Made by a program: the position numbers and the translations under genes
Virus record (IMG/VR): IMGVR_UViG_3300015179_000037
Location: 1 to 9,586 of that record
DNA length: 9,586 nucleotides
Source of the DNA: a virus
Lineage: Duplodnaviria > Heunggongvirae > Uroviricota > Caudoviricetes
Reading direction: 5' to 3' (one strand)
Shown: one piece after another, positions 208 through 9,586 of the stretch
Layout: every line of letters starts with the position of its first letter
Position numbering within the stretch: the stretch's first letter is position 1
Notes under the pieces: model-generated
Told to the model about the DNA's origin: nothing
The model's input: only the letters and a program-made list of their open reading frames with translations
The model's database searches: none

Positions 208-612
208 GTGACTGGCAGTCTCAGCGCCGATATGCTGATTGACCTGAAATTTACGCTGCGCAATAAGTACCGCAAAAAAGCTGTATGGGTGATGAACTCA
301 AATACAGCCGCCTCCGCACAAAAACTGAAAAATGCCACTGGTGATTACATCTGGCGCGATCGTTTACAGGCTGGTGATCCTGATTCTCTGCTGGGGCTTC
401 CGGTTGAATATCTGGAATTTATGCCGGACGGTGTGATTGCAGTCGGTGACTTTAAGCGCGGTTATTTCATCGTTGACCATAAAACCGGTACGCGTACCCG
501 TCCGGATTTCAGCGAGCCTGGATTCATTAACATCTATACCCAGAAATATCTGGGCGGTGGTGTGGTGGATTCGAACGCCATCAAGATTCTGGAAATTCAG
601 GCTGGCAAGTAA
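208..612 (+). CDS. HK97-family major capsid protein, C-terminal portion only; the frame is open from 118 but closed upstream, so this is probably a 5'-truncated or interrupted gene.
   Basis: The translation (AVWVMNSNTAA...LLGLPVEYLEFMPDGVIAVGDFKRGYFIVDH...YLGGGVVDSNAIKILEI) has the pattern I associate with HK97-fold capsid C-termini. Frame 1 has stops at 67-69 and 115-117 and no other frame continues into it. The ORF-track start at 208 is a GTG. Confidence 0.55.
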   Translation: MTGSLSADMLIDLKFTLRNKYRKKAVWVMNSNTAASAQKLKNATGDYIWRDRLQAGDPDSLLGLPVEYLEFMPDGVIAVGDFKRGYFIVDHKTGTRTRPDFSEPGFINIYTQKYLGGGVVDSNAIKILEIQAGK

Positions 613-620
613 TGAGCAAA

Positions 621-641
621 GGGGGCTTCGGCCTCCTTTTT
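621..641 (+). terminator. Candidate intrinsic terminator or attenuator immediately after the capsid ORF
   Basis: GGGGGC-TTCG-GCCTCC forms a 6-bp stem (one G-U pair) with a UUCG tetraloop and is followed by TTTTT. It begins 9 nt after the capsid stop. Confidence 0.5.
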
Positions 642-661
642 CAGCTTTATGGAGTACACCG

Positions 662-1222
662 ATGAAAAACACCGATTTTGAAATCCGTACATCTGAACTG
701 ACCGCCAGCGATAAAAAACTGGTGGGTTATGCCGTTCGCTGGAACAGCCTTTCAGAAATTATCTGGGACGAGTTTCGCGAACAGTTCACGCCGGGGGCTT
801 TTGCTGACTATCTGGCGGCGGGTAATGATGTGCGCTGTCTGTATGAGCATGACTATACCCAACTGCTGGGGCGTACCAAATCCGGCTCACTGGTACTGAC
901 TGAGGATAACACCGGGCTACGTTTTGAACTGACACCGCCAAATACCCAGCTTGGAAAAGATGTGCTTACGCTGGTGGAACGTGGCGATATTACAGGAATG
1001 AGCTTTGGCTTTCGCGCATTATGCGAGGAGTGGAATATCGCGCAAAAACCGTATCTGCGTACTGTAACCGCCGCAGAACTCCGTGAAATCACGATAACAT
1101 CGATGCCTGCTTATCCCGAATCCGGCGTGGAGATTGCCCACCGTTCGTTGTTTGCACAGTACCCTGAATTACGCCCGGCAGGAAATAATCGTCATCGCTG
1201 GGCTGAACTGGCGGGGTTGTGA
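662..1222 (+). CDS. Prohead maturation protease, HK97 family (peptidase S78)
   Basis: The translation MKNTDFEIRTSELTASDKKLVGYAVRWNS...LLGRTKSGSLVLTEDNTGLRFELTPPNTQLGKDVLTLVERGDITGMSFGF matches the conserved layout of HK97 prohead proteases. The ATG at 662 has GGAG upstream; the track start at 437 is an in-frame upstream extension. Confidence 0.85.
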   Translation: MKNTDFEIRTSELTASDKKLVGYAVRWNSLSEIIWDEFREQFTPGAFADYLAAGNDVRCLYEHDYTQLLGRTKSGSLVLTEDNTGLRFELTPPNTQLGKDVLTLVERGDITGMSFGFRALCEEWNIAQKPYLRTVTAAELREITITSMPAYPESGVEIAHRSLFAQYPELRPAGNNRHRWAELAGL

Positions 1223-1223
1223 T

Positions 1224-2438
1224 ATGTGGTGGCCTTTTAGTCGTAAAAAAAGCGATCTGCGTAACCTGTCCATTGATGATTTTCTGGCGTTGTCTGGTGT
1301 ACCAAATACCGGATCCGGAGAATATGTTTCTGCCGGGACGGCTGAATCATTGCCTGCTGTGATGAACGCGGTTTCTGTCATCGCTGAGGCGGTGGCCACG
1401 ATGCCGTGTTACCTGTATCTGGTACGCAATGATAAGGGCAGAGAGGCGCGGGAATGGCTGGACAGTCACCCGGTAGATATTCTGCTGAATGAGCAGCCTA
1501 ATTCGTGCCTGACACCTTACCAGTTTAAACGCACAATGATGCGTCACTGCCTGCTGAACGGTAACGCCTATGCGGTTATTGAGTGGGGGCGGGACGGGCA
1601 GCCAAAATCACTTCATCCTTATGCGCCGGGGTGTGTTGTACCGGAACGCACAGGCACACACAAATACCGCTATACCATCACCGAACCCTGTACAGGAACG
1701 GTGCGCACGTATTTACAGGAAGAAGTTCTGCATCTCCGCTATGCCTCGGATGATGGCTTTCTGGGGCGTTCCCCCGTCACGATTTGCCGTGAGGCGCTGG
1801 GGCTTGGCCTTGCTCAACAGCGCCACGGAGCCAGCATTATGAAAGATGGCATGATGGCGGCAGGGATTATCACGTCAGGTGAATGGCTGGACGGCGTGAA
1901 AGGTAAACAGGCATTAGACGCACTGGAACGCTACAAGGGGGCGAAAAATGCCGGAAAAACGCCAATCCTTGAAGGGGGCATGGATTACAGGCGGCTGGGG
2001 ATGAGTAACCAGGATGCGGAATGGCTGGCCTCCCGTCGCTTCTCCATTGAAGACATCGCCAGGATGTTCAACGTGTCGCCGATTTTTCTTCAGGAATACA
2101 GCAACAGCACCTACAGCAATTTCAGTGAGGCGAGCCGCGCATTTCTGACCATGACAATGCGCCCGTGGCTGGCGAACTTCGAACAGCAAATCAAGGCCGC
2201 TTTGCTGGTGACTTCTCCCGTACCTGGTACCCGTTATCTGGTTGAGTTTGATTCAGCCGATTTACTGCGCGCCACACCCACCGAACGTTATGCCACGTAT
2301 GAGAAAGGGATTAAGAGCGGGATCATGAATCCGAACGAAGCTCGCGAACGCGAGGGTATGCCGCCGCGTGAAGGTGGTGATGAGTTCAGCCAGGCATGGA
2401 AACAGACTGTGGAAATTAAAGGGAGAAAAGATGAGTGA
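1224..2438 (+). CDS. Phage portal protein, HK97 family
   Basis: A 404-aa product whose C-terminal half (SIEDIARMFNVSPIFL...RPWLANFEQQI...RYLVEFDSADLLRATPTERYATYEKGIKSGIMNPNEAREREGMPP) is typical of HK97-type portals. The ATG at 1224 lies 1 nt after the protease stop; the track start at 1134 overlaps the protease. Confidence 0.85.
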   Translation: MWWPFSRKKSDLRNLSIDDFLALSGVPNTGSGEYVSAGTAESLPAVMNAVSVIAEAVATMPCYLYLVRNDKGREAREWLDSHPVDILLNEQPNSCLTPYQFKRTMMRHCLLNGNAYAVIEWGRDGQPKSLHPYAPGCVVPERTGTHKYRYTITEPCTGTVRTYLQEEVLHLRYASDDGFLGRSPVTICREALGLGLAQQRHGASIMKDGMMAAGIITSGEWLDGVKGKQALDALERYKGAKNAGKTPILEGGMDYRRLGMSNQDAEWLASRRFSIEDIARMFNVSPIFLQEYSNSTYSNFSEASRAFLTMTMRPWLANFEQQIKAALLVTSPVPGTRYLVEFDSADLLRATPTERYATYEKGIKSGIMNPNEAREREGMPPREGGDEFSQAWKQTVEIKGRKDE

Positions 2439-2733
2439 AGCCAGAATTACACCTGATGAAGTCAGGGCACATCTTCGACTTGATGATGATTTATCCGGTG
2501 AAGGCGAACTTCTGAAAATGTATACCGATGCGGCGCTGGAAGCCTGCCAGAAGCATATCGGGAAACGTTTTGAAGACGGGCTGGAATTTACCCCGGCAAT
2601 GCGTGTTGGTTGCCTGATGTACATCGCTTTCCTGTACGAGAACAGGGAAGCAGTTTCACCAGTGGAGCAGTCTGAACTGCCTATGGCTATTTCTGCGCTC
2701 TGGTCGGTTTATCGTGATGTGGGGGTGTACTGA
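2431..2733 (+). CDS. Head-tail connector / DNA-packaging protein, gp6-like
   Basis: The N-terminus MSEARITPDEVRAHLRLDDDLSGEGELL...AALEACQKHIGKRF fits the gp6-like connector family. GGGAG precedes the ATG at 2431, and the gene overlaps the portal stop by 8 nt. Confidence 0.75.
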   Translation: MSEARITPDEVRAHLRLDDDLSGEGELLKMYTDAALEACQKHIGKRFEDGLEFTPAMRVGCLMYIAFLYENREAVSPVEQSELPMAISALWSVYRDVGVY

Positions 2734-3173
2734 TGCCGTGGCAACCATTAAGGCGATGCACTGAGCCGGGCTGTAATAAGCGCGTGAAGTCCGGCAAGTG
2801 TGAAGAGCACAGACGGGCTGTATGGCGTGCAGAGGATGCCAGACGGGGACACCGCCGCGCGCGCGGGTATTCCCGACAGTGGGACAAATACCGCGCCCTG
2901 TACCTGAGCAAAAACCCGTTATGCGTGCGTTGTCTGGCTAAGGGGATTTATACGCCAGCTCTTGTGGTGGATCACATCATCCCCATCAATGGCGGCGGTG
3001 ATGTTCTCTTCTGGCCTGAGTGGAACCACCAGGCATTGTGCCAGACGTGCCACAACCGTAAGACGACACGGGAAGATCCAGCCACGAAAGCGAACCGTAA
3101 GGCGGGCATGTATCGCGAGCAGGAAGAACGGGCGGCACACCGTAACGACTGGATGTATGGCGATGATGACTGA
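2733..3173 (+). CDS. HNH endonuclease, terminase-associated type
   Basis: Cys pairs (CTEPGC, CVRCL, CQTCH) plus DHIIP and NH motifs are characteristic of HNH nucleases. It sits immediately upstream of the terminase genes, as HNH does in HK97-like packaging modules. Its ATG overlaps the connector stop (TGATG). Confidence 0.85.
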   Translation: MPWQPLRRCTEPGCNKRVKSGKCEEHRRAVWRAEDARRGHRRARGYSRQWDKYRALYLSKNPLCVRCLAKGIYTPALVVDHIIPINGGGDVLFWPEWNHQALCQTCHNRKTTREDPATKANRKAGMYREQEERAAHRNDWMYGDDD

Positions 3174-3461
3174 ACAGGAGCAAACCAGGCTGATACGTGG
3201 GTTGATAAGGCAGCGTGACACATGGAAGACACAGGAGACAGGGCACAAAGCCAACAGGACAGGGCGCACAAAACGCACCACAGCGAAGTGATTAACCGAC
3301 CGTGACCGCGAGGTCATGGAATGTTTTCGCAATCGCTGGTGAGGCCGTCAGAGGGGGTGGGGGTGGTTTTCAGGACGAAACCGCCCCTGCCGGACACCGA
3401 CCGCCTCCTCAAATTTTTGTGCACGGGAATTTTTTTGAAAATAATTGGGCGAAAAAAGAAC
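3174..3461 (+). promoter_or_regulatory. Candidate cos / terminase-recognition region between HNH and TerS
   Basis: This is the only sizeable non-coding gap in the module. It contains an imperfect direct repeat (ACAGGAGACAGGGCACAAA at 3231-3249 and ACAGGACAGGGCGCACAAA at 3254-3272), a G-tract GGGGGTGGGGGTGG at 3353-3366, and T/A runs just before the TerS start. Confidence 0.35.
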
Positions 3462-3818
3462 ATGGCAAGACCACCAAAAGCCCCCGCTTACCTGGATGAA
3501 ATCGCGGTCAGGCAGTGGAAGGAAAAATCGCGCCAGCTTTCCGGACGGGAAGACCTTACTCCCGCCGACTGGAGCAATCTGGAGCTGTATTGCGTTAACT
3601 ACTCCATATACCGCAAAGCCGTCGAAGACCTTGCCACGCGCGGGTTCAGCATTGTTAACAGTCAGGGCAGCGAGAGCAGAAACCCCGCCCTGAGCGCAAA
3701 GGCTGACGCTGAAAGAATAATGATCAAAATGGCTTCTTTGCTGGGTTTTGACCCGGTAAGTCGCCGCAGAAATCCACCGGAAACAGAGGAAGAGGACGAG
3801 CTTGACCGCCTGGCATGA
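3462..3818 (+). CDS. Terminase small subunit, P27 family
   Basis: The translation MARPPKAPAYLDEIAVRQWKE...LTPADWSNLELYCVNYSIYRKAVEDL fits the P27-type TerS. I chose the internal ATG at 3462 rather than the track start at 3321, because the extension runs through the G-tract and T-run region. Confidence 0.75.
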   Translation: MARPPKAPAYLDEIAVRQWKEKSRQLSGREDLTPADWSNLELYCVNYSIYRKAVEDLATRGFSIVNSQGSESRNPALSAKADAERIMIKMASLLGFDPVSRRRNPPETEEEDELDRLA

Positions 3819-5463
3819 GTACGCAGAAGGCGTAAAAAACGGCAAAATTACGGCCTGTAAACGACTGAAACAGGCCGTTAAACGGTATTTTTCTGACCTT
3901 GAAAACCCCCTTTACACGTTCGATCCGGAGGTCGTGGAGCGGTTTATTGCCTTTTCCAGGGTGTGTCCGCACGTAAAAGGCGCAATGCGCGGTAGCCCCA
4001 TTGAGCTGGAGCCGTGGCAGCAGTTCGCCTTTGCGTGCATCCTGGGCTTTAAGGTTAAGGCCACCGGACGGCGCAAATACACCAGCGCATTCATTGAAGT
4101 GCCGCGAAAAAATGCCAAATCCACGGTCGCCGCTATCCTGGCTAACTGGTTTCTGGTTATGGAAAACGGGCAGCAGGATATTTACACCGCCGCTGTGAGT
4201 CGTGATCAGGCGCGGATCGTGTTTGATGATGCGCGTCAGATGTGCCTTTTATCCCGACCGTTACGAAAGCGGGTAAATATTCAGGCACACAAGGTGATAC
4301 ACCCGAAAACCAACAGCCTGTTAAAGCCACTGGCAGCAAAAGCGGCAACCATTGAAGGTACAAACCCGAGTCTTGCCATTGTGGATGAATATCACCTGCA
4401 CCCTGACAACGGGGTTTATTCCGCGCTTGAACTGGGAATGGGGGCGCGTCCGGAGGGGCTGTTATTTGCCATCACCACATCGGGGAGCAACGTTGTTTCA
4501 GCCTGTAAACAACACTATGACTATTGCTGCCAGATACTGGATGGTGAAGAGGTGAACGAATCCATGTTCGTGCTGATTTACGAGCTGGATGATGAAAGCG
4601 AGGTTGACGATCCGGCGATGTGGATAAAGGCGAATCCCAATATCGATGTTTCCGTCGATCGTGAAAAACTGGCCTCAACCATCCAGAAAGCGCGGGGTAT
4701 TCCGTCGCAGTGGGTGGAAATGCTCACCAAGCGATTCAATATCTGGTGTCAGGGGGCTACGCCGTGGATGGGTAACGGTGCATGGGCGGAGTGCGCCGGA
4801 ACGTTCGCAGAGGCGGATTTATACGGTCAGGAGTGCTACGCGGGGCTGGACTTATCATCAACCAGCGATATTTCCAGCGTGTGCTATGCCTTTCCGGTCG
4901 GTAAAAAGATTATGCTGGTTTCCCGTCACTATCTGCCGGAATTTCAGCTACAGAACCCCGCCAATAAAAACCGCGCCATCTATCGCCAGTGGGTAAAGGC
5001 GGGCTGGATACGCACAACACCGGGTGACTGCATTGATTATGACCGTATCCGTGATGACATCATGGCGGATGCAGAGAATTTCAATATCAGGCTGGTGGGC
5101 TTCGATACATGGAACGCCACGCACCTGAGGACGCAGCTACAGGGGGCAGGATTTGAGGTGGAGCCGTTCCCGCAAACATACCTTCGTTTCAGTCCGGCGG
5201 CGAAATCGTTCGAAGTTTTTGTTAACCGGAAGGTGATTGTGCATCGTGGCGATCCGGTGCTGGCCTGGTCAATGAGTAATGTTGTGATGCAGAGTGACGC
5301 GAACGCCAATATCAAGCCGAACAAGAAAAAATCATCCAACAAGATAGACCCGAGCGTTGCGGCGCTGATGGCGTTTGGCACATTCCAGGCAGAGCATGAG
5401 GAATTTGCATTTGATATGAGCGACAGCCACAAAGAGCGGCTTGCGGCGTTTGATGGGGTATGA
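3802..5463 (+). CDS. Terminase large subunit (ATPase/nuclease)
   Basis: A 553-aa product with a Walker-A-like VPRKNAKST, a Walker-B-like LAIVDE and a C-terminal nuclease-like region. The start appears to be TTG at 3802, overlapping the TerS stop. Confidence 0.9.
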   Translation: MTAWHEYAEGVKNGKITACKRLKQAVKRYFSDLENPLYTFDPEVVERFIAFSRVCPHVKGAMRGSPIELEPWQQFAFACILGFKVKATGRRKYTSAFIEVPRKNAKSTVAAILANWFLVMENGQQDIYTAAVSRDQARIVFDDARQMCLLSRPLRKRVNIQAHKVIHPKTNSLLKPLAAKAATIEGTNPSLAIVDEYHLHPDNGVYSALELGMGARPEGLLFAITTSGSNVVSACKQHYDYCCQILDGEEVNESMFVLIYELDDESEVDDPAMWIKANPNIDVSVDREKLASTIQKARGIPSQWVEMLTKRFNIWCQGATPWMGNGAWAECAGTFAEADLYGQECYAGLDLSSTSDISSVCYAFPVGKKIMLVSRHYLPEFQLQNPANKNRAIYRQWVKAGWIRTTPGDCIDYDRIRDDIMADAENFNIRLVGFDTWNATHLRTQLQGAGFEVEPFPQTYLRFSPAAKSFEVFVNRKVIVHRGDPVLAWSMSNVVMQSDANANIKPNKKKSSNKIDPSVAALMAFGTFQAEHEEFAFDMSDSHKERLAAFDGV

Positions 5464-5753
5464 CGAGAATGAGCGAAACCGAACTACTAAAAATAATCCG
5501 CCGCGTTACCGGAATCAGCCAGGAAGCAGGCAAACAGGAGGCCACGCAGCCGGACAGCGTGATAGCCAAAAATTACGCGCGTGTGGTGGCTGAGGTGATG
5601 CGCCGTGACGGTATCGAGCTTAACGGCGTGGATATACGCAATATACGCACCAGAGTTCTGGAGTTGTTGTCATATCGTCGCCGCGTGGAGATGTACCAGG
5701 AGAAAGAAAAAATTACTTACCACTGGAAGAAGCCGGAGCGGTTGCGGCGGTAA
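5460..5753 (+). CDS. Hypothetical 97-aa basic protein, translationally coupled to TerL; function unknown
   Basis: Its ATG overlaps the TerL stop (GTATGA). I recognise no family from the sequence (MTRMSETELLKIIRRVTGISQEAGKQ...RRRVEMYQEKEKITYHWKKPERLRR). It is the last ORF before the non-coding island end. Confidence 0.5.
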   Translation: MTRMSETELLKIIRRVTGISQEAGKQEATQPDSVIAKNYARVVAEVMRRDGIELNGVDIRNIRTRVLELLSYRRRVEMYQEKEKITYHWKKPERLRR

Positions 5754-6046
5754 CTGGTTGATATTCCCGACGTTCCAAAAATGGGTTGGCTACACCCCTC
5801 ACAACTACGACATTTTCGCAGTTTAATTAATGGTCAGTTTAATCGCTAACCCGCTGATATTTTCGGAAACCTCAATTTGAGGAGACCGGAACGTCTACAT
5901 GGCTGCATCACCATAACGATGATTTAGCCCACCAGCAACCATAACGATTTCCGTTACAGTTGATGTGCTTTTTTGCTGGTAAGGCCTAACCCGTTGATTC
6001 TTCCACAATCCCCCATTGGGGGAGGCTGGGCGGCCTGCTGTGGGCT

Positions 6047-6065
6047 TTTCCACCATTGGTGGAAA
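6047..6065. repeat. Perfect 19-bp palindrome TTTCCACCATTGGTGGAAA, sharing a CCATTGG core with the 13-bp palindrome CCCCCATTGGGGG at 6010-6022
   Basis: Read directly from the sequence; the two palindromes are about 25 bp apart edge to edge. Confidence 0.9.
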
Positions 6066-6284
6066 GGTGCAGATCTGGATCATCATTACGGTGATCAAGG
6101 GTATGTAAAACCCACCAGCCTGATTGACATTTAACCGGAAAAAAGCCAGGTAGCCCCGTTATGGGGATCCCCATATCGACATTAACGCCCCTCATGAATT
6201 GGCGTGCTTCTCCCTGGAAAGATGACCCGCCTGTATATTTCTTGTGTCTATTTGTTCCACGTTGTTTCATACAGTGCACCGAAC

Positions 6285-6308
6285 GGTGTAGTTAATGGTG
6301 TAGTTAAT
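6285..6308. repeat. Perfect tandem duplication, 2 x 12 bp (GGTGTAGTTAAT)
   Basis: Read directly from the sequence; it lies close to the inferred island/chromosome junction. Confidence 0.9.
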
Positions 6309-6352
6309 TTGCGATTTTTGGCACTTCTTGCAGTGTATATTGTTTAATTAAA

Positions 6353-6391
6353 TCAATGCGTTATTGAAAATAAGTTATAGATATATCCCAT
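6353..6391 (-). pseudogene. allE: Probable orphaned 5' end of allE (ylbA): start codon and RBS retained after allC, gene body replaced by the insertion
   Basis: On the minus strand the allC stop is followed by AGGAG and, 10 nt later, ATG GGA TAT, which then runs into a stop after 12 codons (MGYIYNLFSITH*). From memory, E. coli AllE begins MGY and starts a few bp after allC. Confidence 0.4.
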
Positions 6392-6401
6392 TTATGACTC
6401 C

Positions 6402-7637
6402 TTATTTCTGCCAGGCAAGTTGATAAAGCATGAGTGCCAACGTTTTGACCCCTTCGGCAAGGTCGGTAATATTGGTGCGTTCCGCCGGGTTATGGCTGAT
6501 CCCATTGATGCTGGGAATGAAAATCATGCAGGTTGGTACGCGAGGCGCGAAAATTTGCGCGTCGTGCCCGGCACCACTGTGCATCACCCGGTAATTCAGT
6601 TTTTCGCTTTCACACAATTCTGTCAGGGTGGCGACCAGGTCCTTATTCATCGGCACGGGTTCTTCGTCCATCCATAAATCGATATCAATACCAATGTCCA
6701 TTTCATCGCAAATCGCCCGCATGTCGTTTTCTAACTGCTGAGTGAAATCGCGCAGCACGGCGGCGTCGGTATGACGACAATCAATGGTGAATGTGGTTTT
6801 ACCCGGCACCACATTCACCGTATTCGGGCGCGGCTCCACCTTACCAAAGGTCAGCACCAGCGGGTCGCCCATCTTTTTCGCTTTTTCGATCGACTGATGG
6901 CAAATGCGACTGAAAGCGTAAACTGTATCACGACGGTAACCCATCGGCGTGGTGCCTGCATGGTTTGATTCGCCGTTCAGCGTCACCGTATAGCGACGTT
7001 GCCCGACAATTGCATTCACCACGCCAATTGATTGCCCATTACTTTCCAGCACACAGCCCTGTTCGATATGCAGTTCGACAAAGGCTTTAATATCCTGACG
7101 CGGAGTTAGCGGGGCGTCCGGCAGAGTAAATCCGCAAGCCTTCATCGCATCGACAAAACTATTTCCTTTGGCATCACAGATATTCCGCACGTCGTCAGGA
7201 TTCGCCAGCCCAAAGATATTTTTACTGCCCCAGAAAACATACGGGAAGCGGCTGCCTTCTTCTTCCGCCATCGCCACCACTTCAACCGTACGTAACGGCG
7301 CGCCGTATTGCCTTTTCAACCAGTCAATTGCCAGCCACGCCGCCAGCGCGCCGAATTGCCCGTCGAGGTTACCGCCGTTAACCACGGTATCGATATGCGA
7401 ACCGCTCAGAACCACTTCCTGTGGATATTCGGTGCCACTCAGGCGACCGTATAAATTCCCCACTTCATCGAAACGTGTTTCCAGCCCGCTTGCTGCCATT
7501 CTTTTTTTAAATTGCTGCTGGGTTTCCAGCCATTCCGGCGAATAAAGTAAACGGGTCATCCCACCCGTTGGGTCAGCGCCAAAAGAGGAAAGCCAGGGCA
7601 GCGTTTCTTCTATGGCTTGACGGAAATGTGTAATCAT
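6402..7637 (-). CDS. allC: Allantoate amidohydrolase
   Basis: The translation MITHFRQAIEETLPWLSSFGADP...LMLYQLAWQK matches E. coli AllC as I recall it across its length. The start is the ATG at 7637 with an AGGA RBS; the track start at 7655 is an upstream extension. Confidence 0.93.
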   Translation of the reverse strand: MITHFRQAIEETLPWLSSFGADPTGGMTRLLYSPEWLETQQQFKKRMAASGLETRFDEVGNLYGRLSGTEYPQEVVLSGSHIDTVVNGGNLDGQFGALAAWLAIDWLKRQYGAPLRTVEVVAMAEEEGSRFPYVFWGSKNIFGLANPDDVRNICDAKGNSFVDAMKACGFTLPDAPLTPRQDIKAFVELHIEQGCVLESNGQSIGVVNAIVGQRRYTVTLNGESNHAGTTPMGYRRDTVYAFSRICHQSIEKAKKMGDPLVLTFGKVEPRPNTVNVVPGKTTFTIDCRHTDAAVLRDFTQQLENDMRAICDEMDIGIDIDLWMDEEPVPMNKDLVATLTELCESEKLNYRVMHSGAGHDAQIFAPRVPTCMIFIPSINGISHNPAERTNITDLAEGVKTLALMLYQLAWQK

Positions 7638-7658
7638 AAGAAAGTCCTGTCTCAATAA

Positions 7659-8708
7659 TTATTGCGCAAAGGGATTTTTCGTTTCGTATGACGTGTTATA
7701 AAGCGCGTCGGAAATTAAATACTGGTAAATATCATCAACAATTTCGATGCCTTCGACGGCGGCTTTGCGTTGTTTCATATCCTGATCCTGTCCGGGATAA
7801 TAAACCTGGTTAAAACCGGGCGCGGGGGTTATGGCATTTAATTCGCGCATGGTCTGGCTAAGATGTTGACGGAATAGTTCGCTGGAGGAGAAAAAGTTCG
7901 GATTAATAACGATATGTAATTGCCCCAAATTACGCCCGGCGTGTAAATCGTCATACATCGAACTAACCTGTCGCCCGAACGGTAAGCCGAGTAAGACGCC
8001 TGAGAGGACGTCAATCATCATCATCAGGCCATACCCTTTCGGTCCGGCGGCAGGGAGCAGGGCGTTAACTGCAAATGGATCGGTTGTTGGTGCTCCGTTT
8101 TTATCGACCGCCCAGGTATCCGGGATAGACATATTACGCGAGCGGGCGTCGAGCACTTTTCCCCATGCCTGTACGGTAGTCGCCATATCAAAGGTAAGGA
8201 TCTCGTCGCCTTCTCCCGGCGCGGCAAAGGCCAGTGGGTTAGTACCGTAGTAAATTTCCGCGCCGCCAAACGGCACCACCATTGGATCGGACTGGCACAT
8301 CGAAATGCCAATTAATCCGGCGCGGGCTGCCTGCTGCACAAAATAAGAGATTGCGCCGCTGTGACCCATCCGGCTGATACCGACCACCGCAACGCCATTT
8401 TGCTGGGCGGTTTTGATGGCATGTTCCATACCCATTTTCGCCGCGACCTGTCCGGCGGCATTGTCGGCATGTAAAATTGCCGAGCACGGCCCGGTTTCCT
8501 CAAGACGAAACTCCGGTTCGCGGTTGGTGCCGCCTTTTGAAATGCGTTCTGCGTAGTATTCAACACGCACCGCGCCATGAGAGTGGATCCCTCTGGCATC
8601 GGCGTAAACCAATACTTCAGCCACGGTTGCAGCGTGCTCACGTTTTAACCCAGCCTGGCAGAGTTTATTCTCAATTAGCTGGTGGAGTGTTTCCCGACTG
8701 ATTTTCAT
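7659..8708 (-). CDS. allD: Ureidoglycolate dehydrogenase
   Basis: The 349-aa translation MKISRETLHQLIENKLCQAGLKREHAATVAEVLVYADARGIHSHGAVRVEYY... matches E. coli AllD. An AAGGAAG RBS precedes it, and it lies 21 bp upstream of allC in the same orientation. Confidence 0.93.
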   Translation of the reverse strand: MKISRETLHQLIENKLCQAGLKREHAATVAEVLVYADARGIHSHGAVRVEYYAERISKGGTNREPEFRLEETGPCSAILHADNAAGQVAAKMGMEHAIKTAQQNGVAVVGISRMGHSGAISYFVQQAARAGLIGISMCQSDPMVVPFGGAEIYYGTNPLAFAAPGEGDEILTFDMATTVQAWGKVLDARSRNMSIPDTWAVDKNGAPTTDPFAVNALLPAAGPKGYGLMMMIDVLSGVLLGLPFGRQVSSMYDDLHAGRNLGQLHIVINPNFFSSSELFRQHLSQTMRELNAITPAPGFNQVYYPGQDQDMKQRKAAVEGIEIVDDIYQYLISDALYNTSYETKNPFAQ

Positions 8709-9024
8709 CTGTCTTCCTTTTTAACGACGGTGTGAAGCATGACTGCAATTAACATACAGGGAAAATATCTGGATTATGTGATCCAGACAGGCAAAAAAAT
8801 ATAGTTAGAATTTATTTGATAATCCGCTCACTTTTAACCTGATTTTTAAAACAACCACGCTTATTAAAAAATAATGAGTAATAGCCTGGCGGTTATTTGA
8901 ATTCTTTTGTTAATAATTCCTGTGTGATATTCATCACCTTATTTACTCGTTGTCATCGATACCGTAATCGCCACATTAACACTGCTCGTGCAATTGCCAT
9001 GAGTGCAATTTTTAAGGAGTTGTT
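8709..9024. promoter_or_regulatory. Divergent allD / fdrA intergenic control region
   Basis: An AT-rich 316-bp gap between divergently oriented genes. It contains an inverted repeat TCTGGAT-N6-ATCCAGA at 8768-8787 and a GTGCAATT direct repeat pair (8990-8997 and 9003-9010) just upstream of the fdrA RBS. Confidence 0.5.
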
Positions 9025-9586
9025 ATGATCCACGCCTTTATTAAAAAAGGGTGTTTTCAGGATTCGGTCAGTTTAATGATTATTTCACGAAAACTCAGCG
9101 AATCAGAAAATGTTGATGATGTTTCCGTAATGATGGGTACGCCCGCCAATAAAGCGTTATTAGATACCACAGGTTTCTGGCATGACGATTTTAATAACGC
9201 CACGCCGAACGATATTTGCGTGGCAATTCGTAGCGAAGCGGCGGATGCGGGGATCGCGCAGGCGATTATGCAGCAGCTTGAAGAGGCGCTAAAACAACTG
9301 GCGCAGGGGTCAGGCAGCAGCCAGGCGTTGACGCAGGTGCGTCGCTGGGACAGTGCCTGTCAGAAATTACCCGATGCCAATCTGGCGCTGATTTCAGTGG
9401 CTGGCGAGTATGCGGCGGAGCTGGCAAACCAGGCGCTGGATCGCAACCTCAACGTGATGATGTTCTCCGATAACGTCACGCTGGAAGATGAAATCCAACT
9501 TAAAACCCGCGCGCGGGAAAAAGGCTTGCTGGTGATGGGGCCGGACTGCGGTACGTCGATGATTGCCGGCAGATCGGAAGAGCGTC
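9025..9586 (+). CDS. fdrA: FdrA, 5' partial; runs off the window, and the final 16 nt are probably adapter rather than gene
   Basis: AAGGAG RBS then ATG at 9025; the translation MIHAFIKKGCFQDSVSLMIISRKLSESENVDDVSVMMGTPANKALLDTTGFWHDDF... matches E. coli FdrA as I recall it. Confidence 0.85.
   Translation, partial: MIHAFIKKGCFQDSVSLMIISRKLSESENVDDVSVMMGTPANKALLDTTGFWHDDFNNATPNDICVAIRSEAADAGIAQAIMQQLEEALKQLAQGSGSSQALTQVRRWDSACQKLPDANLALISVAGEYAAELANQALDRNLNVMMFSDNVTLEDEIQLKTRAREKGLLVMGPDCGTSMIAGRSEER
9571..9586. other. Probable Illumina adapter remnant (AGATCGGAAGAGCGTC) at the 3' end of the contig/window
   Basis: An exact 16-nt match to the start of the standard Illumina TruSeq adapter AGATCGGAAGAGCGTCGTGTAGGG..., located exactly at the window end. 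Confidence 0.8.

What the first reader, a model, noticed from the sequence alone, without database searches (positions are those of the whole stretch)
3174..3461. Candidate cos / terminase-recognition site between HNH and TerS
This 288-bp non-coding stretch sits where HK97-like phages have cos (HNH, then cos, then TerS). It holds two adjacent copies of an ACAGGA(G)ACAGGGC(GC)ACAAA motif, an ACCGACCG motif twice, a GGGGGTGGGGGTGG tract, and A/T runs next to the TerS start. Terminase-associated HNH is known to assist cos cleavage in HK97-type systems, so an element-specific cos here would let the element package its own DNA.
Basis: inference. Interest (0 to 1): 0.45.

Follow-up and report, generated by a model that had tools for sequence, protein, structure and literature searches.

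The report
Packaging cut site of phage satellite

Summary
The motifs exist as described (one coordinate is off by 1 nt). The window is the right half of an E. coli capsid-forming PICI (cf-PICI): capsid, protease, portal, connector, HNH, TerS, TerL.

The interval is not all non-coding. Positions 3157-3342 are a conserved small gene (phrog_3173), cut short here by a TGA at 3289-3291. It contains the ACAGGA tandem repeat and the first ACCGACCG. Diverged relatives lack the repeat.

The true spacer is 3343-3461. Across 113 distinct relatives it keeps three near-invariant blocks:
- a G-tract block (3353-3376)
- CTCAAATTTTT (3408-3418)
- T7-GAAAATAA (3430-3444)

A 15.5-kb viral-metagenome contig is a complete excised relative. 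It ends and starts exactly either side of a missing 10-nt stretch, which corresponds to window 3398-3407 (CGACCGCCTC). That is the signature expected of a 10-nt 3' cohesive end, as in HK97. Two lysate-derived GenBank records also break inside this spacer.

When both are anchored on their cut sites, the element and HK97 align best at offset 0: G-run near -50, and a 9-bp A:T tract at +21..+29 versus +23..+31. TerL and HNH are HK97 homologues. TerS is not detectably one.

It is a new member of a known kind, of modest interest.

The parts
2733..3173 (+). HNH endonuclease gene. It is the packaging-associated nuclease and a homologue of HK97 gp74.
   Evidence: Pfam HNH E 8.8e-10. phrog_144 E 7e-45. 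36% identity to HK97 gp74, E 6e-17.
3157..3342 (+). Small conserved gene of unknown function (phrog_3173), 61 codons in intact relatives. In this window TGA at 3289-3291 (CGA in most relatives) cuts it to 44 codons. It contains the ACAGGA tandem repeat (3231-3272) and the first ACCGACCG (3295-3302).
   Evidence: The ORF is kept open to ...ECFRNR(W)* in most relatives down to about 62% DNA identity; a few others are also disrupted (L077/L078/L081) or lack it (L050/L059). PHROG hits E 1.8e-28 and 2e-27. PGAP CDS WP_001251186.1 in CP024223.
3343..3461 (.). The true non-coding spacer, which is the cos region of the element.
   Evidence: Lies between the small-ORF stop and the terS ATG. All three virion- or virome-derived assemblies break inside it.
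3353..3376 (+). Upstream conserved block GGGGGTGGGGGTGGTTTTCAGGAC, at -55..-32 from the top-strand cut. It is a candidate packaging-termination subsite, analogous in position to lambda cosQ. That role is inferred.
   Evidence: Near-invariant in 113 unique relatives. A comparable block is present in the Pasteurella relative Pmp8. HK97 has a G-run at -51..-43.
3398..3407 (+). Predicted cohesive end (cosN), CGACCGCCTC. The nicks fall at 3407/3408 on the top strand and 3397/3398 on the bottom strand, giving a 10-nt 3' overhang.
   Evidence: Contig IMGVR_UViG_3300022664_000095 ends at ...GGCAC and starts at CTCAAATTTTT. The 96%-identical integrated relative L105 has CACCCGCCCC between those two points. 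The homologous column in the window comes from the alignments.
3408..3418 (+). CTCAAATTTTT, the first 11 bases of the packaged left end and the most conserved block of the spacer.
   Evidence: Near-invariant in 113 unique sequences. It is the first base run of the excised contig.
3422..3444 (+). CACGGGAATTTTTTTGAAAATAA, at +15..+37: a G:C cluster, then a 9-bp A:T tract, then GAAAATAA. This is the probable TerS recognition site (inferred).
   Evidence: Conserved. HK97 TerS binds +15..+29, with an A-tract at +23..+31 (PMC11331095). The +30..+37 block changes together with TerS residues 63-74 in three lineages.
3462..3818 (+). Small terminase TerS, P27 / Terminase_4 family, 118 aa.
   Evidence: Pfam E 1.6e-23. 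phrog_83. The ATGGCAAGACC start is conserved in nearly all relatives; a few have ATGCCAAGACC.
3802..5463 (+). Large terminase TerL, with HK97-type ATPase and nuclease domains.
   Evidence: Pfam TerL_ATPase and TerL_nuclease. 28% identity to HK97 gp2 over the full length, E 3e-49.

Best explanation
The 119-nt spacer 3343-3461 is the cos site of a capsid-forming PICI.

Proposed mechanism:
1. After excision and replication, the element's own TerS binds the A:T-rich site just upstream of its gene (about +15..+37, 3422-3444).
2. TerS positions TerL, assisted by the HNH protein.
3. Staggered nicks are made at 3407/3408 (top strand) and 3397/3398 (bottom strand).
4. DNA is packaged rightwards from CTCAAATTTTT (terS, terL, ... 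int ... capsid ... HNH) into the element's own small capsids.
5. Packaging stops at the next cos. The conserved G-tract block about 50 bp before the cut is the last conserved sequence met, and may help termination.
6. The mature DNA carries 10-nt 3' cohesive ends (CGACCGCCTC in this lineage).

Shown here: position of the ends in a relative, conservation of the blocks, and homology of TerL and HNH to HK97.

Inferred: 3' polarity, the TerS site, the role of the G tract, and transfer of the cut position to this window by alignment.

The ACAGGA repeat belongs to a small, here-truncated gene and is not part of cos.
For: 1. Ends. The 15,518-bp viral contig 3300022664_000095 is a complete excised cf-PICI in virion order: terS, terL, int, primase, capsid, protease, portal. 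It starts at CTCAAATTTTT and ends at ...GCAAGGCAC. Ten nt (CACCCGCCCC in the 96% relative L105) are missing and there is no terminal overlap.

2. vB_KppS-Ant (LR881103) is lysate DNA from K. pneumoniae DSM 30104, prepared with Nextera XT. It gives a linear record that stops 21 nt short of the right duplex end (31 nt before the top-strand cut) and begins 38 nt after the cut. PQ569648 carries a cf-PICI segment that also breaks in this spacer.

3. Conservation. In 113 unique relatives, -55..-31, +1..+11 and +22..+37 are near-invariant while the sequence between them varies. The same layout occurs in Pasteurella Pmp8, whose TerL is 70% identical.

4. HK97 parallel.
- TerL 28% identity, E 3e-49. 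HNH E 6e-17.
- HK97 has a 10-nt 3' overhang, a TerS site at +15..+29 and HNH-stimulated cleavage.
- With both sites anchored on their cuts, ungapped identity peaks at offset 0: 55 of 135 against about 27-50 at the other 30 offsets tried.
- G-run at -54..-45 versus -51..-43. A:T tract at +21..+29 versus +23..+31. terS ATG at +55 versus +50.

5. The literature says cf-PICIs package their own DNA using HNH, TerS and TerL and have cohesive ends.
Against: - Only one assembly gives the ends at base resolution. Its library method is unknown, so the 3' polarity rests on the assumption of end repair. A further scan of 79 metagenome stretches, and the 80 rows displayed of 120 viral stretches, found no second contig starting at the site.
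- The cut is transferred to this window by alignment. The window's overhang (CGACCGCCTC) differs from that contig's lineage at three positions.
- Local alignment of the HK97 and cf-PICI cos DNA is not significant (z about 0). The resemblance lies in layout only, and G-runs and T-runs inflate register scores.
- No binding or cleavage was tested.
Confidence: 0.8

Rival explanations
1. The whole 288-bp interval, including the ACAGGA tandem repeat and both ACCGACCG copies, is the terminase-recognition region. On this reading the repeats are TerS-binding sites upstream of the cut.
For: The repeats are real and unlikely by chance. Lineage-specific TerS sites could exist, because this lineage's TerS is only about 85% identical to the others.
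Against: The repeat lies inside a protein-coding ORF that is conserved at the amino-acid level. It falls in an alignment gap in relatives at 62-69% identity that keep the identical cos core and an 84-86% identical TerS. In HK97, TerS binds downstream of the cut.
Confidence: 0.07
2. The conserved blocks are expression signals for terS and terL (a promoter, terminator or structured leader RNA), and cos lies elsewhere or packaging is headful.
For: The G- and C-tracts can pair in a predicted RNA fold of -41.5 kcal/mol. A weak terminator-like site lies at 3345-3360.
Against: - The fold z-score is only -1.75.
- RNAalifold gives a covariation term of -0.1, with 1 compensatory pair among 17.
- No + strand promoter-like site was found, and there is no Rfam match.
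- The contig ends fall exactly here.
- TerL is of the HK97 cos type, and cohesive ends are reported for cf-PICIs.
Confidence: 0.05
3. The site is a cos, but the cut or the overhang differs from the prediction. For example, a different length or a 5' polarity, or a cut a few bases away as in the HK97 register (after AAA, 3413/3414).
For: The base-level evidence comes from a single contig of unknown library type. By motif alignment alone (GACCGCC...AAA), the HK97 cut would map about 4-6 nt further right.
Against: The missing stretch is exactly 10 nt, the length of the HK97 overhang. A 5' overhang would be filled in and duplicated at both contig ends, not lost. The HK97 and cf-PICI register test peaks at offset 0 for the predicted cut.
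Confidence: 0.15

Closest known systems
cos site of coliphage HK97 (10-nt 3' overhang; gp1 TerS, gp2 TerL, gp74 HNH)
   Same: - It lies between the HNH gene and terS.
- TerL and HNH are homologous.
- The cohesive end is 10 nt and C-rich with a CCGCC core.
- There is a G-run about 50 bp upstream of the cut.
- A G:C cluster followed by a 9-bp A:T tract lies about 20-30 bp downstream, where HK97 TerS binds.
- The terS ATG follows about 50-55 bp after the cut.
   Different: - There is no significant DNA similarity by local alignment.
- The overhang sequence differs: CGACCGCCTC versus CGCCGCCAAA.
- TerS belongs to another sequence family (Terminase_4/P27, 118 aa, versus gp1, 161 aa). No sequence or profile match was found, and the fold match is only weak.
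- A small phrog_3173 gene sits between HNH and cos.
- The site serves a 15-kb satellite genome packaged into satellite-encoded small capsids.
cf-PICI packaging module (EcCIEDL933, KpCIDSM30104; Penades laboratory preprints 10.1101/2022.09.08.507074 and 10.1101/2025.02.11.637232)
   Same: The gene order is the same: capsid, protease, portal, connectors, hnh, terS, terL. KpCIDSM30104-type DNA (vB_KppS-Ant) shares the same cos blocks. Cohesive ends and exclusive self-packaging are reported for the family.
   Different: The papers held in the library do not give the position or sequence of cos. This window's copy sits next to allC/allD rather than at the sites of the described elements, and it carries a truncated small ORF.
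lambda cos (cosQ, cosN, cosB; 12-nt 5' overhang)
   Same: It has three parts: an upstream element met last during packaging, the nicking site, and a terminase-binding region on the terS-proximal side.
   Different: The overhang polarity and length differ. No HNH is used in lambda. No R-site repeats were found. An IHF-like match (WATCAANNNNTTR) was seen by eye only in the Pasteurella relative. The proteins are unrelated in sequence, which I state from my own knowledge of lambda.
Classical PICI and SaPI cos strategies (helper cos carried by P4 and SaPIbov5; Rpp redirection in E. coli PICIs)
   Same: A satellite uses a cos signal to get packaged.
   Different: Here the satellite brings its own terminase, its own HNH and its own cos. 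It neither copies the helper's cos nor reprograms the helper's TerS.

Membership tests
HK97-type cos (3'-overhang, HNH-assisted) | The site lies immediately upstream of terS, with the packaging HNH gene on the other side. | tested here: met
   HNH 2733-3173, spacer 3343-3461, terS 3462.
HK97-type cos (3'-overhang, HNH-assisted) | TerL and HNH are homologous to HK97 gp2 and gp74. | tested here: met
   TerL 28% identity, E 3e-49. HNH 36% identity, E 6e-17.
HK97-type cos (3'-overhang, HNH-assisted) | Packaged DNA has fixed termini at the site. | tested here: met
   The excised 15.5-kb viral contig starts and ends in the spacer, 10 nt apart. Two lysate-derived records break in the same spacer. This is evidence from relatives, not from this copy.
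HK97-type cos (3'-overhang, HNH-assisted) | The single-stranded end is 10 nt with 3' polarity. | tested here: inconclusive
   A length of 10 nt fits the missing stretch. The 3' polarity is inferred from loss rather than duplication of the stretch, and the contig's library method is unknown.
HK97-type cos (3'-overhang, HNH-assisted) | TerS binds a G:C cluster plus A-tract about +15..+29 downstream of the cut. | not testable with these tools
   The sequence analogue is present and conserved (CACGGGAATTTTTTT at +15..+29). Binding was not measured.
HK97-type cos (3'-overhang, HNH-assisted) | TerS is homologous to HK97 gp1. | tested here: not met
HK97-type cos (3'-overhang, HNH-assisted) | DNA sequence similarity to the HK97 cos. 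| tested here: inconclusive
   Local alignment is no better than shuffles. Cut-anchored ungapped identity peaks at offset 0 of the 31 offsets tried.
cf-PICI (capsid-forming phage-inducible chromosomal island) | The packaging operon runs capsid, protease, portal, connector(s), hnh, terS, terL. | tested here: met
   Pfam hits in that order across window 208-5463.
cf-PICI (capsid-forming phage-inducible chromosomal island) | Integrase, regulation and primase module present, no tail or lysis genes, size 10-18 kb. | tested here: inconclusive
   The left part of the element lies outside the window. A relative that is 99.4% identical over HNH-TerS (CP024223) has int, an HTH regulator, a DUF927 primase-type protein and no tail genes within about 15 kb.
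lambda-type cos (5' overhang) | A 5' protruding end, which end repair fills in so that it appears at both ends of an assembly. | tested here: not met
   The 10 nt are absent from both contig ends and there is no terminal repeat.
pac / headful packaging | Permuted, terminally redundant ends with no fixed terminus. | tested here: not met
   Fixed ends. HK97-type TerL. Cohesive-end concatemers are reported for cf-PICI DNA.

The most novel reading that the evidence does not exclude
HK97-type packaging machines may share a fixed cos geometry that has not been described as such: a G-run about 50 bp before the cut, a C-rich 10-nt overhang, and a G:C-to-A-tract junction about 20 bp after the cut. This geometry would be kept even when TerS has diverged beyond sequence recognition. 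Satellite-versus-helper specificity would then come from only a few positions (the overhang, +12..+20 and +30..+37). On this reading the G-run would be an unrecognised termination subsite, a cosQ analogue. The 19 overhang variants among cf-PICI lineages would make their ends mutually non-cohesive.
Probability: 0.3. Interest if true: 0.5.

Novelty: new member of a known kind. Interest (0 to 1): 0.3.

Why it matters
cf-PICIs spread between species because they package only their own DNA into their own capsids. The cos site is the DNA address that makes this exclusive. In the papers I could search, cohesive ends are mentioned but the site is not located. A base-level prediction (overhang 3398-3407, flanking conserved blocks, candidate TerS site) gives a minimal packaging signal of about 120 bp that can be tested directly. 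It could be used to make plasmids transferable by cf-PICI particles, or to ask what keeps the helper and satellite terminases apart. It also corrects annotation: many gene calls extend TerS to 165 aa across cos. Conceptually it is an expected feature of a known family, so the advance is one of refinement.

Tried and rejected
- Local alignment of the HK97 cos junction against five cf-PICI cos regions scored no better than dinucleotide shuffles. I therefore make no claim of DNA homology.
- An RNA or DNA hairpin between the G and C tracts was rejected. The window fold has z -1.75, RNAalifold finds almost no covariation, and by inspection the two tracts are direct complements rather than inverted repeats.
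- A promoter or terminator reading was rejected. There is no + strand promoter-like site, and only weak terminator-like stems.
- Rfam gave nothing.
- The search for further contigs ending at the site found none starting at CTCAAATTTTT. It covered the G-block pattern in viral contigs, the left-end pattern in metagenome contigs (79 stretches) and in viral contigs (120 stretches, capped, 80 rows displayed). Most were integrated or circular assemblies. Several apparent ends (L096, L119, L166, L195) were storage-chunk boundaries, not contig ends.
- TerS versus HK97 gp1 showed no link by BLASTP, hhalign or PDB phmmer. Two AF2 models (pLDDT 69 and 72) gave only weak fold matches.
- The starts of contigs L060 and L072 (132 and 291 nt upstream of terS) do not coincide with anything and look like ordinary assembly breaks.

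Full report
**What the window is**

Pfam scans give, on the + strand:
- capsid C-terminus (208-612)
- S78 prohead protease (within 437-1222)
- portal (1134-2438)
- head-tail connector (2368-2733)
- HNH (2733-3173)
- P27/Terminase_4 small terminase (ATG 3462-3818)
- large terminase (3802-5463)

A phrog_1561 ORF follows at 5460-5753. After it come chromosomal allC, allD and fdrA on the - strand.

This gene order is that of capsid-forming PICIs (cf-PICIs) as described in preprint 10.1101/2022.09.08.507074. The HNH-TerS stretch occurs in 502 of 5,426 complete E. coli genomes. A copy that is 99.4% identical over that stretch, in CP024223, is a roughly 15-kb island with integrase, an HTH regulator, a DUF927 primase-type protein and no tail genes.

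**Checking the observation**

All the motifs exist:
- the two ACAGGA...ACAAA copies at 3231-3249 and 3254-3272
- GGGGGTGGGGGTGG at 3353-3366
- the A/T runs before terS

The interval is not wholly non-coding, however. I aligned the 330 nt upstream of terS from 80 IMG/VR relatives plus a GenBank record. An ORF overlaps the HNH stop and is kept open to a conserved ...RDRE(V/L)(M/R)ECFRNR(W)* end in most lineages that cover it, including those only 62-69% identical in DNA. Its amino-acid pattern is conserved while the DNA changes. The exceptions are L077/L078/L081, which carry a frameshifting deletion, and L050/L059, which lack the motif. It matches phrog_3173 (E 1.8e-28), and PGAP calls it in CP024223 (WP_001251186.1).

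In this window, and in L009 and L016, the codon CGA has become TGA at 3289-3291. The gene (3157-3342) is therefore cut to 44 codons.

The ACAGGA repeat and the first ACCGACCG lie inside this gene. The repeat falls in an alignment gap in the diverged relatives. The true spacer is 3343-3461.

**Conservation in the spacer**

I compared 113 unique sequences anchored without gaps. Three blocks are near-invariant:
- GGGGTGGGGGaGGTTTTcAgGACaAA (-55..-31; window 3353-3376 and onward)
- CTCAAATTTTT (+1..+11; 3408-3418)
- TTTTTTTGAAAATAA (+22..+37; window 3430-3444)

The sequence between them is variable. The 10 nt before CTCAAATTTTT occur in 19 variants.

Pasteurella element Pmp8, whose TerL is 70% identical, has the same layout and no small ORF.

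**Where the DNA ends are**

Viral-metagenome contig IMGVR_UViG_3300022664_000095 (15,518 bp) is a complete cf-PICI in excised order: terS, terL, integrase, primase, capsid, protease, portal.
- Its first bases are CTCAAATTTTTACGCACGG...
- Its last bases are ...GGTTTTCAGGACAAAACCCAAGCCGCAAGGCAC.
- There is no terminal overlap.
- The 96%-identical integrated relative L105 reads ...GGCAC CACCCGCCCC CTCAAATTTTT.

Exactly 10 nt are therefore absent between the contig's end and its start. A random break of a circular assembly would give abutting or overlapping ends. A filled-in 5' overhang would be duplicated at both ends. Loss of exactly 10 nt is what blunting of a 10-nt 3' overhang produces. This last step is an inference, because I do not know the library method.

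Two further records agree at lower resolution:
- LR881103 (vB_KppS-Ant) is lysate DNA from K. pneumoniae DSM 30104, made with Nextera XT and SPAdes (PMC8006926). That strain is the host of the cf-PICI KpCIDSM30104, for which cohesive-end concatemers are reported. The record is linear and stops 21 nt short of the right duplex end, 31 nt before the top-strand cut. It begins 38 nt after the cut, as expected from tagmentation of linear molecules.
- PQ569648 is a chimeric 106.5-kb record. Its last 15.8 kb are a cf-PICI that begins at the terS ATG and ends at the small-ORF stop.

Transferred to the window by alignment, this gives:
- overhang 3398-3407 (CGACCGCCTC)
- nicks at 3407/3408 (top strand) and 3397/3398 (bottom strand)
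- terS ATG at +55

The second ACCGACCG (3396-3403) overlaps the overhang.

**Comparison with HK97**

HK97 has a 10-nt 3' overhang. Its cleavage is stimulated by the HNH protein gp74. Its TerS binds +15..+29, where a G:C cluster meets a 9-bp A-tract (PMC11331095 and PMC9410871).

The GenBank ends of HK97 read ...GGGCAGGGGGGGGGATCAAATCTTCAAAACCTTTGCCCCAAATGACCGCCGCCAAA | GTTTGAATTTAACGCTAACCCGATTTTTTTAG..., with the terS ATG at +50.

A local alignment with the cf-PICI spacer is not significant. I then anchored each sequence on its independently determined cut and slid one against the other. The mean ungapped identity over -75..+60 peaks at offset 0: 55 of 135, with the next best 49.7 and typical values of 30-40.

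| Feature | This element | HK97 |
|---|---|---|
| G-run | -54..-45 | -51..-43 |
| CAAAACC motif | same columns as HK97 in relatives such as L054 (the window has CGAAACC there) | same columns |
| A:T tract | +21..+29 | +23..+31 |
| terS ATG | +55 | +50 |

Protein comparisons with HK97:
- TerL is a full-length homologue of gp2 (28% identity, E 3e-49).
- HNH is a homologue of gp74 (E 6e-17).
- TerS is not detectably related to gp1 by BLASTP, hhalign or family assignment.

**Mechanism**

My best reading is that TerS recognises the A:T-rich site at about +15..+37 and positions TerL and HNH to make staggered nicks 10 bp apart in the C-rich core. DNA enters the satellite's capsid from the terS end. 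The G block, reached about 50 bp before the next cut, takes part in termination.

Support for the TerS site is indirect. It rests on the match in position with HK97 and on a natural swap: three lineages replace GAAAATAA (+30..+37) with [ACG]ACAGCAG, and they share a different TerS segment at residues 63-74. The role of the G block is a guess from its position and its conservation in both systems.

**Rivals**

- A structured RNA, terminator or promoter is not supported.
- The ACAGGA repeat as a terminase site is unlikely for the reasons given above.
- The exact cut and its polarity remain the weakest point, because they rest on one contig. Further pattern scans found no second example.

**Novelty**

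cf-PICIs, their self-packaging and their cohesive ends are already known. In the papers I could search, the cos site itself is not located. I cannot exclude that the journal versions locate it.

The finding is therefore an expected feature of a known family. I have placed it at base resolution by inference, and its layout parallels HK97. I rate it as a new member of a known kind, with modest interest.

Noticed in passing
window 3157-3342 (stop at 3289-3291): A small conserved gene (phrog_3173, function unknown) sits between HNH and cos in nearly all enterobacterial relatives. It is truncated here by CGA>TGA, as it also is in L009 and L016. In L077, L078 and L081 it is disrupted by a deletion of about 11 nt that shifts the frame. 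The Pasteurella relative Pmp8 lacks it. It therefore seems dispensable, yet it is widely kept.
   Followed up: partly
window 3321-3818: The TerS reading frame stays open upstream to an ATG at 3321. Many gene callers therefore report a 165-aa 'TerS' that runs across the cos site. The conserved start is the ATG at 3462 (118 aa).
   Followed up: partly
L087, L109, L181 (cos +30..+37) and their TerS residues 63-74: Three lineages replace GAAAATAA with AACAGCAG, CACAGCAG or GACAGCAG. They share a different TerS segment (VEGSRGATTSN instead of IVNSQGGESRN), while the cut site, G block and T-run stay the same. This is a possible natural read-out of which TerS residues read which bases.
   Followed up: partly
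cos -10..-1 in 113 unique relatives (window 3398-3407): The predicted cohesive end occurs in 19 sequence variants. CACCCGCCCC is the commonest and the window has CGACCGCCTC. The flanking bases are nearly invariant. Ends of different lineages would not anneal to each other.
   Followed up: no
L202 (HK97 NC_002167) 39677-39690: HK97 has a run of nine G about 50 bp before its own cos cut, in the same position as the cf-PICI G block. The HK97 papers I read describe no role for it.
   Followed up: no
L200 (PQ569648.1, 'Klebsiella phage P12620-1', about 90,740-106,503): The last roughly 15.8 kb of this 106.5-kb 'complete genome' are a cf-PICI joined to unrelated phage DNA exactly at the terS ATG. 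This looks like a chimeric assembly of phage and satellite particles.
   Followed up: partly
L001 (LR881103.1, vB_KppS-Ant): The source paper (PMC8006926) describes this 16.5-kb record as a filamentous ssDNA prophage. It encodes capsid, portal, HNH, TerS, TerL, an integrase and a primase, so it is a cf-PICI. Its host, DSM 30104, is the host of KpCIDSM30104. The record also annotates a 'tail length tape measure protein' (2036-4333), which I did not check.
   Followed up: partly
window 5754-6401 and 6402-9586: The element abuts allC, allD and fdrA. Only 13 of 5,426 complete E. coli genomes share this junction. The copy that is 99.4% identical over the HNH-TerS stretch, in CP024223, is inserted in yifB. 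Closely related packaging modules therefore sit at different chromosomal sites. The attachment site was not sought.
   Followed up: partly
window 3412-3421 and 3428-3437: A direct repeat, AATTTTTGTG and AATTTTTTTG, with 16-nt spacing flanks the G:C cluster downstream of the cut. This gives two phased A:T tracts that could bend the DNA.
   Followed up: no
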